Positions 9,001-15,000 of a DNA stretch of 64,000 nucleotides are shown here, piece after piece. How positions within the stretch are numbered: position 1 is the first letter of the stretch; every line of letters begins with the position of its first letter. A program made the position numbers. The stretch is from Anolis carolinensis (lineage: Eukaryota). The DNA lies in NCBI RefSeq assembly GCF_035594765.1, contig NC_085842.1:125749036-125813035 (forward strand). Direction: 5' to 3'.

Positions 9001-12000
9001 CTGAACTAAATTGGCTGTGATATCTTTAAGAGTATAAGGATATTGAGGTAAGGTATATGCTCAACTAAAATGGCTGTAAGGTTGGTGCACAAGGTTATAA
9101 ATTAATATACATTTGGCTATGAGGTAAGTATAAATTATAGTAATTATGAGGTATGTAACTTTTCTTTGGGCTATGTTGGTAAATACAGAACTAAAAGTTA
9201 TAGAGACTATGAGGTAAGTACAGAACTAAAAGCTATAAAGGCTATGAGGTAAGTACTTTACTAAACTATGAGATAAGTACACTCTTTGGCTATGATGTCT
9301 TTATGGTAATTACAGAACTAAAGGCTAAAGTAAAATTCTCTAATCTTTGTGATAAGCACAGTAAGGCTTTAAAGTAAATACTTTTATCTATAATAGCTAT
9401 AAGGTATGGTAAGCACGTGATATAGATAGCCTGTTCTGGTTTGCCAGGCCAAAAGGAACCCAGACCATTCTTATGACCTAACTCTAAAAAGCCTTGATCT
9501 GGAATGAAAATGGAGGGGGAAAGGCCTCTGAGATCAGCTCTCAGACAGTATGGCTGAACCAACTTAACCAGGCCAACAGGGGAGTTTTAAGCTCCACCCC
9601 TAAAATAAGAGCAAATGGAACAGTCTACCCAAGAGCAGCAAACCAGGAAAAGAGCAAAGGAGGGAAAAGCTAAGTAAGACATAACAATATGCATCAAGAT
9701 TACATCATGGATAGAAAAAAATAAATATACAATGGATACCCCAGGGGAAAATGGAAAGGAAAATGGGAAGAACTGATAGCCAAGGTCAAGGGCAACAGAA
9801 AATATAAGGAATTGAACCAGACTATCTTGATCCAACAAACAGAATGAATGATAAAGGAAATGCATGACTCTTCCCAGATGGAGGGGAGTGAATGGGAGAG
9901 GGAGGGGGAGGGGGGAAAGCAGTGAAAAGGGGATAAATACAAGTAAGGGAACAAAGGCAATTACTTATTAAATCTTTTCTCTCTTTTTTGTTAAGATAGT
10001 ATATGTCGTACATGTTATCTTCTAAATTCCCTCAGGAGGAAATGTGGTTATGTTTTACTCCACTTGTTTGATGCTCTTTTTTTTAAAGAGTATGTTATAT
10101 TGGAATAAAAGGTCACAATGAACAATCTTTTCCGAATTTATCCAAAAGATTAAGAGGCTTGTGTTTCGATTCATAAATATCTCCAAATCACTGAAATTTT
10201 CCAAAATCCAAAATGGCATTCAGAATTTTGCACACCTCTAGGCTTTATATGACCAATTATTTTTCCAGTCATATGGTCTTGTTTCTTGTTTTTCCTCTTG
10301 TTCTCTTCCTCTCCTCCTTCCTCCTCCTCCTCCTTTTATCTTAGGAACACAGACTCAAAGCAGCTACATAGAGACAGAAAAGAGATATTTATGACCAGGC
10401 ATTCCATAGATAAAAAAACCTCAATTTGGAGGCTTTAGGTGTCAAAAACAGAAGTGTTTCACATACAGAAAATCCTGTCCTATCTAAACCGCAATTGCTC
10501 TAACAGAATGATGGCAGGGGGTTGGTGGGGGGGGGGGGGGGGGAGAGAGAGAGAGAGAGAGAGAGAGAATGCTAGAATTTTCCAATAGAATTCATTTCCA
10601 CACTGACATTGGAGCTAGCTTCCCGCTTAACCCTCCATCAAGATATTTATCACAGTCACAAGTATTTCCTATTCGGGTAGAAAACTTTAATGTATCTCAA
10701 TGCAATAATTTAAGGCTACAATTATCCTTTTTTCCCATTTGTAACATAATTTGGGTTGAAGCCAGCCAAAATATAAAGGAATGAATAAATGATCAAAAGG
10801 TGACATTCAGCCTCACCTACTTCTGATTACTTATTCAGAAAGTCCAAGCTGTTATGGCCTTTTGTAAAATTTGAAAGGGAAACGAGCCCTCATTTTAATG
10901 CCAGTGCAGCTAGATGCCAAAGTAACAAATAGACTTCTAAGCCGCACTAAAAAAATAATTGCCACTTCTCCATTCATAGTTTTATGCAGATTTTGAAAAA
11001 GTTACTTTTGGGTTTTTTTGTGTGTGAGGAGCGACTTGAGAAACTGCAAGTCGCTTCTGGTGTGAGAGAATTTGCTGTCTGCAAGGACATTACCCAGGGG
11101 ATGCCCGGATGTTTTGATGTTTTACCATCCTTGTAGAAGGCTTCTTTCATGTCCCCACATGGAGCTGGAGCTGATAGAGGGAGCTCATCTGCGCTCTCCC
11201 TGGATAGAATTCAAATCGGCAACCTTCAGGTCAGCAACCCAACCGTCAAGTCAGCTTTCTTACTTACTTAGGCAATCCCTCGTAGGCCGAGAATGATGGT
11301 CCTCCATTTGTGGGGTCTTGGGGGTGGGTCCGTAGGTGGCTGAAGGGAGGACAATGGCTTTATAAACAAGCACCTTGGTATCTCTACGGATGTCCCGATC
11401 ATCAAACACTCTCTGCTTCATTCGGAAAAATGCTGCACTTGCAGAGCTCAGGCAGTGTTGTATTTGAGTGTCAATGTTGACTTTTGTGGAGATTTAGCTG
11501 CCAAGGTAGCGGAAATGGTCAACGTTTTCTAATATGACACCATTAAGCTGTATTCCTGGCATTGCAGAGGGGTTAGCTGGTGCCTGTTGGAAGAGCACTT
11601 TGGTTTTCTCAATGTTCTTGAGCTTCTCATATAGTTCAATGCAAAAAGAAAAAAAATCATCAAGCTGCTGTACCAGTTATTATTCCAATGGCCAGCGGAA
11701 GAGGAACAGGATAAAAATTGTCAAATAAAATGGGCTAGAGATATTGGACACAGTATAAATATTAATCAATGGGAAGAAATGTGGAACAAGAAACTGAAAT
11801 TCACCTCAGCCATAGAAGTACAAGAAAACTGGTATAAATTGTTTTTCAGATGGCACTACACCCCAACCAAATTAGCTAAGTTCAATAAGCACATTTCAAA
11901 TAAATGCTGGAAGTGCAACAAAGAAATAGGTACTTTCTTCCACCAATGGTGGAAATGTAAAAAAAATAAAGATTATTGGAAGAATGTACATAAAGCGACA

Positions 12001-15000
12001 CAAAAAATATTACAAAAAAAACCTTCCCTTTATCATTGGAAACATATCTGTTGGGCATCTCCAACACAAAGTTAAATAAAAACCAAGACAAAAATACTCT
12101 TTCTCATAGGGACTGCAGCAAGACTCATCCTTGCTAAGGTATGGAAACAAAAAAAAGTACCCATCATTGAAGACTGGATTTTAAGGTTATTTGACATCAT
12201 TTAAATGGAAAGATTAACACAAAAGCTCAGAAATGAAAAGGGAAGAACAGATTGGTCAGGTTTCAGAGACTTTATTCGAAAGGGCGGTTACACTCTAAAA
12301 ATAGTCTTATCCAATGTATGAAAAAACTTCATAATATCAAGATGGCTAGATCAGAAGGAGAATGAACATTGGGAATTTTCACAAATAACAAACTCCAAAG
12401 AAGACCATGGGAAGTCATGTTTTTGTTTAATTTTTTTCTTTTATTTTTAATTTTTTTTAATTATTATATATATTTTCTTTTATTTTTTGTTACTACCTAC
12501 AAGTTTTCTTGTTTTTTTCTCTTTCTTCCACATCTATTTTTCCCCTCTTCTTTACTTCACTATCCCTGTATCAATGTTTTCCTTGCTTTAACTGTACATA
12601 TCACATATAGCACAATAAAAATATTATTTTTTAAAAAGTCAGCAGTCCTGCCAACACAAGGGTTTTAACCACTGCGCCACTGGGGGCTCCTTTGGATTAC
12701 AACTCCTAAAATCTCCCCAGTTGTCATGCCTACTCCCTATGAAATCTAAAAAATATTAATAAAAGGGAATATGCATTTTTCATTTACTATCCTATCTTGT
12801 TTTCTGTGTTTTGCCAGGAAGGCTGTTTCTCATTGTCAGATCTGCACAGGCTGCTGTCGCCAGCACTTCCCTTTTTTGCATAACAGTTTATTTGAATTAC
12901 CATATTTCATCTATTGTAAGATGCCATTGATTGCAGTACACAATCCTTTTTTTTAGTCTTGATTTTTTTTGGGGAAAAAAATTAGTCCTCAACCCAACTT
13001 TACTCTTTTGACTTGCTTCCCAGCTGTTCTGGTCAGCCCCTGGAAAGCCTTTTCTGCCCTATACCCAATCATACTGCCTTTCGTGCAGCCGCCTCCAATT
13101 GCTGAATTGAAGCAACTGTTATGTGCAACTTCTCCTCTCTGGACTGATGCTCTTTGTTGCTGCCGACACCTTATTATTGCAGCAGATTTTTTAATGGATC
13201 AGAAGTGGTGGCAGTGGCTGAAAAAGCAGGACCAAAAGAGAGCCATCAAGAATAGACGCTGCAGTGATACAGAGACAAGGAGATGGGAAGAAGCCATGTG
13301 TAACAGAAATGTGAGGCAGCAGCTCTCCATTGCTTCATCTCTCCATTGCTGCTATTTCATGCTTCTGGCACACATGGCTTCTTTCCATAGAAACACATGA
13401 ATGTTTCTTCTGAGGCTCCTGGGCATTCCTCTTGGTTTGAGGATAGTGTTCTTGCCTCATGGCCACCAATTCCCTACCTATTCCCCACAAATTACATCTT
13501 TTGGGTGTAGTGGACAATACTCAGGTATTGCCCATCACCAGAGTTGAAGTACAATTTAAATGTCAAAAAAGAGAGGTATTTCGGTTTTTAACTCAAGCAA
13601 TAAAAAAACTTTTGGGATCACCATGTTCATGCTTGATGTACAATGTGATTGTAGGAAGTCCACATGTGGGGATTCAGGGCGGTTTCCAACAAGAAATGGC
13701 AAACATTCAATGCCATACCAACAAAAAACACTGCCATGTGAATTTAAACAAAGATATCATAATTTAAAAAAATAGATTACTAAACGTTGAAAAACATGAA
13801 TTTGGAATTAAAACTATTAACAATATAAAATGTAAATTTAAAATGCATGTTCCAAAGCACTAAAAGGCATGTTTCAAAGCACTAGCTTTGCATTCAATTG
13901 ACACTTCTCCTTCTATCCTTTCCTCTGCATGCCAACACAGGCAGCTCTTTTTGGACAGGATATAGACCTACGAAGAATCCAGAATTTCCCAGTACAATCT
14001 AATATCATGGACTGTAATATTTTGTTAGTTTCTCAGAACATCAGAAGGAATATACTAGATTTACAATTTTTGGTATGCAGAAGGTGGTGGCCGATGCACC
14101 ATGAAGTATGCTGTCTCCCACATATGTCATAGATTTGTTGCCAATGCTGGCAGCAAAAGAAGTACTTATAGCAAAAAATCATTGTGGATTTCCAGATTTT
14201 TTTAGCCAAAGCATTTATTCATGTATTGAATAATATATTATGCATACATTTTGATTGATTCCACATCAATCAGAACTAAAATTCTTGTAGGCCTATAACA
14301 AATGTTCAACATAGTTTTCCAAAAAGCAAAGCACTGAATACATAATAATCGAAGAGAATAGAATATTGCCAAAGAAATTTAGTATCATTGGTTATCTGGA
14401 TATCTCAAAAACAAAATACAGTCAGTGCTCCACGTTTGCTAGGCTTGTTGAGAGGATCCCTATGAAAGTGAAAATCATGAATAAAGAAATTTCTAATGTT
14501 TTTACCTGAGATAACACCTCTCTAGAAATGTCTAGATCTTTCGCCATGATTCTGTAGTCAACTTCTGCTGGAAGCTTGACAGATTATCACATTACAGGAC
14601 CTAGAGATTCCTAGAGAGGTGTTATTTCTAGAAACCTCTAGATTCTACAGTCACACTGGAATAACATACCTAGGAATACCTAGAGAGACTATTTTAAGTC
14701 AAATCTGTTAATAATCAAATCTACAAAAGTCATAACTGCAAATGTGTACGGATGGCTGTAATCAATACATAGTAAAAAGGTAAAGGTTTCCCCTGATGTT
14801 AACTTCAGTCATGCCTGACTCTGGGGGTTGGTTCTCATCTCCATTTCTAAGCCGAAGAGCCGGCGTTGTCTGTAGACACCTCCAAGGTCATGGAGCGCCG
14901 TTACCTTCTCGCCAGAGTGGTACCTATTGATCTACTCACATTGGCATGTTTTCAAACTGCTAGGTTGGCAGAAGCTGGAGCAACAGCGGGCGCTCACTCC

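What the first reader, a model, noticed from the sequence alone, without database searches (positions are those of the whole stretch)
11248..12643. RTE and L1 fused head-to-head inside a single 8-bp TSD
Seen: a SINE is split by an insert bounded by aagtcagc (11248-11255 and 12636-12643). The left boundary is the 3' (taag)n tail of a minus-strand RTE and the right boundary is the 3' end of a plus-strand L1. Their truncated 5' ends meet at ~11630 with no third TSD copy. Established: twin priming normally uses both target 3' ends on one RNA. Inference: each end of one staggered break may have primed on a different LINE clade's RNA, giving a cross-clade double-primed insertion. Sequential insertion at the junction with target deletion is the alternative.
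Basis: partly seen in the sequence, partly recalled or inferred. Interest (0 to 1): 0.65.

Follow-up and report, generated by a model that had tools for sequence, protein, structure and literature searches.

The report
RTE and L1 sharing one duplication
In a lizard genome, fragments of two unrelated jumping genes (an RTE and an L1) lie 5'-end to 5'-end inside one 8-bp target duplication, which fits one double-primed insertion event but cannot be told apart here from two successive insertions.

Summary
The anatomy is real. A minus-strand SINE-like repeat (11015-11255 and 12644-12697) is interrupted by a 1380-bp insert flanked by AAGTCAGC (11248-55, 12636-43). The left arm (11256-11637, minus strand) is an RTE-1-type LINE. 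It ends in its authentic (TAAG)3AAA terminus directly at the left repeat copy and carries an internal deletion of about 180 codons. The right arm (11639-12635, plus strand) is the last 225 codons and the 3' UTR of an L1 ORF2. It has AATAAA and a 3-5 nt A tail directly at the right repeat copy. The two truncated 5' ends meet at 11637/11639 with at most 1-2 unassigned bases, and there is no third repeat copy.

This geometry is what two reverse transcriptions primed from the two 3' ends of one staggered break would give. Crude protein-level decay measures show no age difference between the arms. The rival is two successive insertions, the second landing exactly on a boundary and leaving no duplication of its own. 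That rival cannot be excluded without the genome or sister species.

Two-RNA twin priming is already proposed for L1 with snRNA, tRNA, Alu and mRNA. An RTE/L1 pair would be a new variant. Single event: about 0.5.

The parts
11015..11255 (-). Host SINE-like repeat, body and 3' part (left piece)
   Evidence: 82-86% identical to a second copy at 19076-19310.
11248..11255 (.). Left copy of the 8-bp target-site duplication AAGTCAGC
   Evidence: Chance rate 4.4e-5 per position pair.
11256..11271 (-). RTE 3' terminal repeat, read on the minus strand as C-TAAG-TAAG-TAAG-AAA. The ORF stop TAA is at 11264-66.
   Evidence: The RTE-1_AC_1 3' repeat is listed as (GTAA)n in PMC6007223 Table 2.
11267..11344 (-). 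RTE ORF C-terminus, FSHLRTH...YEGLPK
   Evidence: tblastn against P0010 aa 1053-1078, P0005 aa 379-404 (73%) and P0002 aa 519-544. Of the six RTE proteins carrying the motif, four end in EGSPK and one in EGLPK; P0012 continues past EGSSK.
11344..11345 (-). Internal deletion junction in the RTE arm (about 180 codons, P0010 aa ~872 to 1053)
   Evidence: Homology to the window's second RTE copy stops at 11345.
11345..11637 (-). RTE reverse-transcriptase thumb region (P0010 aa 768-872). One in-frame TAA at 11494-96 and a 9-bp deletion near 11617-20.
   Evidence: 82-86% aa identity over 105 residues including the gap, 92% over 92 residues to P0002. 87.5% nt identity to 35384-35656.
11637..11639 (.). 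Junction of the two 5'-truncated ends, with one unassigned base (11638)
   Evidence: The last RTE residue (E of ELYEKL) is at 11635-37. L1 MQKEKK against P0001 MQKDKK starts at 11639 in another frame, then one base is lost in the A run 11649-56 (frame translations).
11639..12321 (+). L1 ORF2 C-terminal ~225 codons plus stop (12319-21). Three +1 frameshifts near 12013, 12041 and 12090; in-frame TAA at 12202-04.
   Evidence: 75% aa identity (168/224) to A. carolinensis P0001 aa 485-708. Hit to the C-terminal domain of human LINE-1 ORF2p in the PDB, E 6.5e-12.
12322..12635 (+). L1 3' UTR with AATAAA (12614-19) and a short A tail (12633-35)
   Evidence: Read directly from the sequence. No second copy of this L1 family in the window to confirm the terminus.
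12636..12643 (.). Right copy of the 8-bp target-site duplication AAGTCAGC
12644..12697 (-). Host SINE-like repeat, 5' head (right piece)
   Evidence: Aligns to the head of the copy at 19310-19345. The box-A-like motif is recalled, not tested.

Best explanation
One integration event. A staggered break was opened in the SINE: the minus strand was nicked at the left edge of AAGTCAGC and the plus strand at its right edge.

The minus-strand 3' end (...GACTT-3') primed reverse transcription on the poly(A) end of an L1 RNA and gave the right arm. The plus-strand 3' end (...CAGC-3') was extended on the very 3' end of an RTE-1 RNA and gave the left, inverted arm. Both cDNAs stopped early. The RTE cDNA also skipped about 550 nt, or lost them later. 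The two 5'-truncated ends were joined by end-joining with 0-2 nt of overlap, and gap filling produced the single 8-bp duplication.

Shown: the anatomy. Inferred: simultaneity, the order of nicks, and which enzyme copied the RTE RNA. I lean towards an L1-type first nick. The duplication starts with AA after a T/C, so the nicked strand reads ...CTT/G. In the RTE's orientation the duplication starts with G, whereas RTE-1_AC_1 duplications typically start with A. The RTE RNA could have been copied by its own protein or by L1 ORF2p jumping onto the RNA's 3' end.
For: - The single 8-bp duplication flanks the pair, and the host repeat is collinear across it.
- Each arm abuts the duplication with its own complete 3' terminus. 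The RTE has its stop codon and (TAAG)3AAA, matching the (GTAA)n listed for RTE-1_AC_1. The L1 has AATAAA 13 nt before its A tail.
- The arms are inverted relative to each other and joined 5' to 5' at 11637/11639 with no filler.
- Neither arm has a direct repeat of its own across its ends (read). A second, separate insertion would therefore have had to be of the minority type without a duplication. In human long-read data, target-site deletions were 7-8% of L1 insertions against 65-70% with duplications.
- No age difference was detected between the arms.
- RTE-1 and L1 families are both recently active and polymorphic in A. carolinensis, so their RNAs can coexist.
- The mechanism has precedent. 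Inverted snRNA/L1, tRNA/L1, Alu/L1 and mRNA/L1 chimeras have been attributed to twin priming on a second RNA. Two distinct 5'-truncated L1s joined at their 5' breakpoints with poly(A) tails outward have been seen in tumours.
Against: - This is a single locus. No empty, RTE-only or L1-only allele could be examined.
- The age tests are weak. The L1 arm's nearest database protein is only 75% identical, the two further searches found none closer (no hit; best representative 62%), and the conserved-column test cannot detect a few per cent of decay.
- The L1 arm carries three frameshifts and one stop in 675 bp. The RTE arm has no single-base frameshift in 380 bp. That could mean the L1 is older, or only that its A runs mutate or are mis-assembled more often.
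- There is no complementarity between the plus-strand primer end (...CAGC) and the RTE tail.
- RTE-clade LINEs are regarded as stringent about their own 3' end and own nick site, and the usual A-first duplication of RTE-1_AC_1 is not seen here.
- The L1 A tail is very short. Its terminus is not confirmed by a second copy.
Confidence: 0.5

Rival explanations
1. Two successive insertions. One element inserted into the SINE and made the 8-bp duplication. Later the other nicked exactly at the junction between the first element's 5' end and the adjacent duplication copy, integrated without a duplication of its own, and deleted the first element's 5' part. The order could be RTE first then L1, or L1 first then RTE.
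For: - Nested LINE insertions are common, and target-site deletions at L1 integration are documented (7-8%).
- The two A that start the duplication give the L1 a TT/ priming end at that boundary and allow 3 indistinguishable nick positions.
- The RTE arm's 550-bp and 9-bp deletions, and the L1 arm's three frameshifts, show that the locus has had time to decay.
- The unequal kinds of damage in the two arms are compatible with unequal ages.
Against: - It needs two coincidences at once: a nick on one of about 3 positions out of the hundreds to thousands of bases available, and an integration that left no duplication (for rates).
- No trace of a second duplication or of first-element sequence lies beyond the second element.
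- No age difference was detected.
Confidence: 0.35
2. A single RNA. At another locus an L1 3' fragment already lay next to an antisense RTE. A read-through or chimeric transcript was retrotransposed by L1 as one poly(A) RNA, giving one duplication.
For: One duplication and one A tail on the plus strand. 5' transductions and chimeric L1 transcripts are known.
Against: The left end of the insert is exactly the RTE's complete 3' terminus, with stop codon and (TAAG)3AAA, and not one base of foreign flank. A transcript start or a 5' truncation landing there is a coincidence of a few in several hundred. It also only moves the origin of the head-to-head junction to another locus. No second copy of the composite is in the window.
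Confidence: 0.06
3. Later rearrangement or assembly artefact. A deletion, gene conversion or mis-join brought two independent elements together.
For: The arms carry deletions and homopolymer-length frameshifts. The window contains two N runs elsewhere.
Against: A deletion between two separate insertions would not leave the host repeat collinear with exactly one 8-bp duplication. The N runs (29549-29723, 58383-58539) are far from the locus.
Confidence: 0.05

Closest known systems
Twin priming of L1 (Ostertag and Kazazian 2001, as described in the passages)
   Same: Both 3' ends of one staggered break prime reverse transcription. The two cDNAs are in opposite orientation, 5'-truncated and joined internally, inside one duplication. 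The poly(A)-primed arm is the longer one: 997 bp against 382 bp here, and a median of 1.51 kb against 0.54 kb.
   Different: Classical twin priming uses one L1 RNA, and the second primer anneals internally. Here the second arm is a different LINE clade and starts at that RNA's very 3' end.
Inverted chimeras of L1 with another RNA, attributed to twin priming on a second RNA: U5 and other snRNA/L1 (PMC4476161); tRNA, 5S, Alu and mRNA/L1 (10.1101/2025.02.02.635956 and PMC13174262)
   Same: Two different RNAs, opposite orientation, one duplication, with the second RNA recruited at the top-strand nick.
   Different: In those cases the partner is a small RNA, a SINE or an mRNA, often 3'-truncated and primed internally. 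Here the partner is an autonomous LINE of another clade with its complete 3' terminus, which may have brought its own reverse transcriptase.
Synchronous independent L1 insertions joined 5'-to-5' in human tumours (10.1101/2024.08.27.596794)
   Same: Two distinct 5'-truncated LINE cDNAs in inverted orientation, joined at their 5' breakpoints, each with its tail outward.
   Different: Those join two distant breaks and make rearrangements with 'heteroduplications'. Both partners are L1 or L1-mobilised RNA. Here there is one break, one true duplication, no rearrangement and two clades.
Template-switch chimeras (U6/L1; U6 with L1, L2 and RTE elements in A. carolinensis)
   Same: Two RNAs in one insertion and one duplication. 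The paper shows that anole LINEs of several clades form chimeras.
   Different: Template switching gives both parts in the same orientation. Here they are opposite.

Membership tests
RTE clade, RTE-1 type of Anolis (left arm) | Protein homology to the single ORF with an AP-endonuclease domain and a reverse-transcriptase domain | tested here: met
They include the 1078-aa P0010 with Exo_endo_phos and RVT_1. One hit is named after C. elegans F52C9.6, which I recall as RTE-1-related. No clade phylogeny was built.
RTE clade, RTE-1 type of Anolis (left arm) | Very short 3' UTR ending in a short tandem repeat; (GTAA)n for RTE-1_AC_1 | tested here: met
   The stop TAA lies inside (TAAG)3AAA, with 8 nt after the stop. 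(GTAA)n is from PMC6007223 Table 2. The short AT-rich 3' UTR of RTEs is recalled from Malik and Eickbush 1998, which I saw only as a reference entry.
RTE clade, RTE-1 type of Anolis (left arm) | Target duplication whose first base, in the element's orientation, is A | tested here: not met
   In RTE orientation the duplication is GCTGACTT, preceded by T, against 'A' for RTE-1_AC_1. This is a tendency, not a rule; its strength was not in the passages I saw.
L1 clade (right arm) | ORF2 C-terminal domain with the Cys/His motif | tested here: met
   CWKC...H....C at 11908-11961. PDB hit to human LINE-1 ORF2p residues ~1063-1158, E 6.5e-12. 75% identity to an A. carolinensis RT protein. 288 representative proteins at E<=1e-10.
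L1 clade (right arm) | Polyadenylation signal and A tail at the 3' end | tested here: inconclusive
   AATAAA at 12614-19 and only 3-5 A at 12633-37. No second copy of the family to confirm the terminus.
L1 clade (right arm) | Endonuclease nick of TTTT/A type at the start of the duplication | tested here: inconclusive
   The nicked strand reads ...GACTT/GACGG, so only TT/G of the consensus is present. Motifs counted as L1 sites are TTTT/A, TTTT/G and TTTC/A.
Twin-primed (double-primed) insertion | Two inverted arms, tails or primer sites at both ends, one duplication, internal 5'-5' junction | tested here: met
Twin-primed (double-primed) insertion | Both arms arose in the same event | not testable with these tools
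   This needs orthologous loci or population alleles and nucleotide consensus sequences. No squamate DNA collection is on hand. The protein-level proxies show no difference but have little power.

The most novel reading that the evidence does not exclude
Two autonomous LINEs of different clades, each with its own ribonucleoprotein, integrated together at one chromosomal break. One element's endonuclease opened the site and the other element's RNP used the opposite 3' end. If so, 'stringent' RTE machinery and 'relaxed' L1 machinery can share a target site, and one LINE can ride on breaks made by another.
Probability: 0.25. Interest if true: 0.65.

Novelty: new variant of a known kind. Interest (0 to 1): 0.42.

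Why it matters
If the two arms came in together, second-strand priming is open to the RNA of another autonomous LINE, not only to the same L1 RNA or to small cellular RNAs. This would apply in genomes where several LINE clades are active at once: lizards, fish and amphibians.

Three things would follow. There would be a route for LINE/LINE chimeras and composite elements. There would be a natural test of how strictly RTE-type enzymes depend on their own nick. And repeat annotators would be calling such pairs 'nested' when they are one event.

As a single locus without comparative data it remains a well-formed candidate, not a demonstration.

Tried and rejected
- Pfam on the five ORF pieces of the insert gave nothing useful, because they lie outside RVT_1.
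- A closer L1 relative, wanted for dating, was sought three ways. 'Longer' proteins gave 1 hit. 'Near' lengths gave 0 hits among 96 candidates. The representative library gave a best hit of only 62%. The L1 arm could therefore not be dated against its own family.
- The window's second RTE copy (35257-36624, P0010 aa 445-910) lacks the 3' end, so it could not confirm the RTE terminus.
- No database RTE protein shows the same internal deletion: 0 of the 10 proteins that contain KAIVLP jump to the C-terminus. A deleted source family is therefore neither shown nor excluded.
- ARAGORN (0 genes in 10000-20000) and Rfam (one sub-threshold miRNA match outside the locus) did not classify the host repeat.
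- MAFFT of the two SINE pieces against copy 2 put the right 8-mer on the neighbouring repeat unit. I rejected that placement because copy 2 has only two units before agtcc.
- The apparent similarity of the minus-strand reading LVQQLDDF (11653-11676) to RTE was rejected as chance. That stretch is unambiguous L1 on the plus strand.
- Literature searches for a LINE/LINE cross-clade double-primed insertion found none (listings plus the passages read). The library misses most subscription journals, and supplements are closed. The TSD tables in the supplements of PMC6007223 and PMC13295347 could bear on typical RTE-1 duplication lengths.
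Full report
**Source**

The window is vertebrate, and by its repeats it is squamate. Every named protein hit to the two LINE arms is from Anolis carolinensis. I do not take it for a human contig. It has two N runs (29549-29723 and 58383-58539), which I left alone. No spliced gene model was involved. Database searches used only unjoined single-frame references, with X at stops. The frameshift-bridged reading of the L1 arm served only for a local alignment.

**Observation**

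AAGTCAGC stands at 11248-55 and 12636-43. In this window an exact 8-mer match at a fixed pair of positions occurs at 4.4e-5 (87 of 2,000,000 random pairs). At the observed spacing there are 4 matches in 61,912 positions, one of them this site.

The flanks are two collinear pieces of one roughly 300-bp interspersed repeat on the minus strand (11015-11255 and 12644-12697). A second copy at 19076-19345 is 82-86% identical to the left piece. It shows the word once, followed by the sequence that follows the right copy here.

The repeat has an internal tandem duplication (caaccNtcaRgtcagc twice), which misled MAFFT. Copy 2 has two units, and this locus has two units plus the extra 8-mer. ARAGORN and Rfam did not recognise the repeat, so 'SINE' is my reading and is not tool-confirmed.

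**Left arm (11256-11637, minus strand)**

- On the minus strand it ends ...GCC TAAG TAAG TAAG AAA, directly against the left 8-mer.
- The last 26 codons (11344-11267, FSHLRTH...YEGLPK, stop 11264-66) match the C-termini of A. carolinensis RTE proteins. Of the six proteins carrying the motif, four end in EGSPK and one in EGLPK; the sixth, P0012, continues past EGSSK.
- At 11344/45 the reading jumps back about 180 codons, from P0010 aa 1053 to about 872. The RT-thumb region then continues to 11637 (P0010 aa 768-872).
- This arm carries one in-frame stop (11494-96) and a 9-bp deletion near 11617-20.
- P0010 is a 1078-aa protein with Exo_endo_phos and RVT_1.
- PMC6007223 Table 2 lists (GTAA)n as the 3' repeat of RTE-1_AC_1 and A as the usual first base of its duplications (passages). 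The tail here matches. The first base, G in RTE orientation, does not.

**Right arm (11639-12635, plus strand)**

- A frameshift-aware alignment to the A. carolinensis protein P0001 (aa 485-708, its C-terminus) gives 168 of 224 identical residues.
- There are three +1 frameshifts (about 12013, 12041 and 12090) and one in-frame stop (12202-04). The natural stop is at 12319-21.
- Just upstream, in another frame, MQKEKK (from 11639) matches P0001's MQKDKK. It is followed by the loss of one base in the A run 11649-56.
- The arm hits the C-terminal domain of human LINE-1 ORF2p in the PDB at E 6.5e-12.
- The 3' UTR ends with AATAAA (12614-19), a T run and AAA (12633-35). Two more A are shared with the 8-mer.
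- No other copy of this L1 family is in the window, so the terminus rests on the signal and the tail alone.

**Junction**

RTE homology ends at 11637 and L1 homology begins at 11639. One base is unassigned. There is no filler and no third 8-mer. Neither arm has a direct repeat of its own across its ends.

**Mechanism**

The geometry is what two target-primed reverse transcriptions from one staggered break would give.

- The minus-strand end ...GACTT-3' sits on an L1 poly(A).
- The plus-strand end ...CAGC-3' sits on the 3' end of an RTE-1 RNA.
- Both cDNAs are truncated and joined 5' to 5'.
- Gap filling makes one 8-bp duplication.

The L1-primed arm is the longer one (997 bp against 382 bp), as in human twin priming (medians 1.51 kb against 0.54 kb).

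Twin priming on a second RNA has been proposed in print. Examples are inverted U5 and other snRNA/L1 chimeras (PMC4476161, passages) and antisense tRNA, 5S, Alu and mRNA/L1 chimeras (10.1101/2025.02.02.635956 and PMC13174262, passages). Two distinct 5'-truncated L1s joined at their 5' breakpoints with tails outward were reported in tumours (10.1101/2024.08.27.596794, passages). RTE-1 and L1 families are both polymorphic, and so recently active, in A. carolinensis (PMC5389967, passages).

Which enzyme copied the RTE RNA is open. The start at the exact RNA terminus fits either RTE's own protein or an end-to-end template jump by L1 ORF2p. The jump is known for R2-type enzymes; that is recalled, not checked here. 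The nick signature favours an L1-opened site.

**Rival: two successive insertions**

This needs the second element to nick exactly at the boundary between the first element's 5' end and the duplication. About 3 indistinguishable positions are allowed, because of the two leading A. It also needs the second element to integrate without a duplication while deleting the first element's 5' part. Target-site deletions were 7-8% of human L1 insertions against 65-70% with duplications (PMC12016303, passages).

My rough priors are my own estimates, not computed. They put this coincidence and a cross-clade double priming within about an order of magnitude of each other, with a modest edge to the single event.

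**Age tests**

- The RTE arm differs from the majority residue of 13 A. carolinensis RTE proteins at 7 of 97 positions. The other copies differ at 2-8.3%; one aberrant protein (19.7%) is set aside.
- The L1 arm differs at 2 of 36 columns that are at least 90% conserved among 16 L1 homologs. The homologs themselves differ at 0-16.7%.
- Neither arm stands out, but both tests are blunt.
- The L1 arm's three frameshifts all lie in or beside A runs. They may reflect mutation or assembly error rather than age.

**Minor rivals**

A single chimeric transcript is unlikely because the insert's left end is exactly the complete RTE terminus. A later rearrangement or mis-assembly is unlikely because the host repeat is collinear with exactly one duplication.

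**Novelty**

The kind, a two-RNA double-primed insertion, is known. I found no LINE/LINE cross-clade case in five searches of a library that lacks most subscription journals and whose supplements are closed. I file this as a new variant of a known kind. It is a well-formed candidate that needs the genome and sister species to decide.

Noticed in passing
window 35257-36624 (minus strand): A second RTE-1-type copy covering P0010 aa 445-910 at 75-86% aa identity. It is truncated at both ends, and its 3' part is replaced by unrelated sequence from about 35257 leftwards.
   Followed up: partly
window 23511-25077 (minus strand): A decayed L1 of another family, 30-36% aa identity to P0001 over the ORF2 C-terminal third, with several stops.
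   Followed up: no
window 56012-56452 (plus strand): A reverse-transcriptase thumb-like stretch, only 25% identical to RTE P0010 aa 814-958. It is probably a LINE of another clade.
   Followed up: no
window 19076-19345: A second copy of the host SINE-like repeat, whose head differs from the copy at 12644-12697 by a deletion or a different subfamily. Both copies share an internal tandem duplication of about 17-20 bp, and the insertion site lies in its second unit.
   Followed up: partly
window 11344/11345: The internal deletion of about 180 codons in the RTE arm has at most 1 nt of overlap at its junction. It could be a jump of the reverse transcriptase during insertion, a deleted source element, or a later deletion.
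   Followed up: partly
window 13283-13388 (minus strand): A sub-threshold Rfam match to the plant miRNA family MIR1513 (26.3 bits against a gathering score of 95, E 0.041). Taken as chance.
   Followed up: no
   Followed up: no
window 34816-34836: A short C run followed by a (CA)n microsatellite, in the region to the left of the second RTE copy.
   Followed up: no
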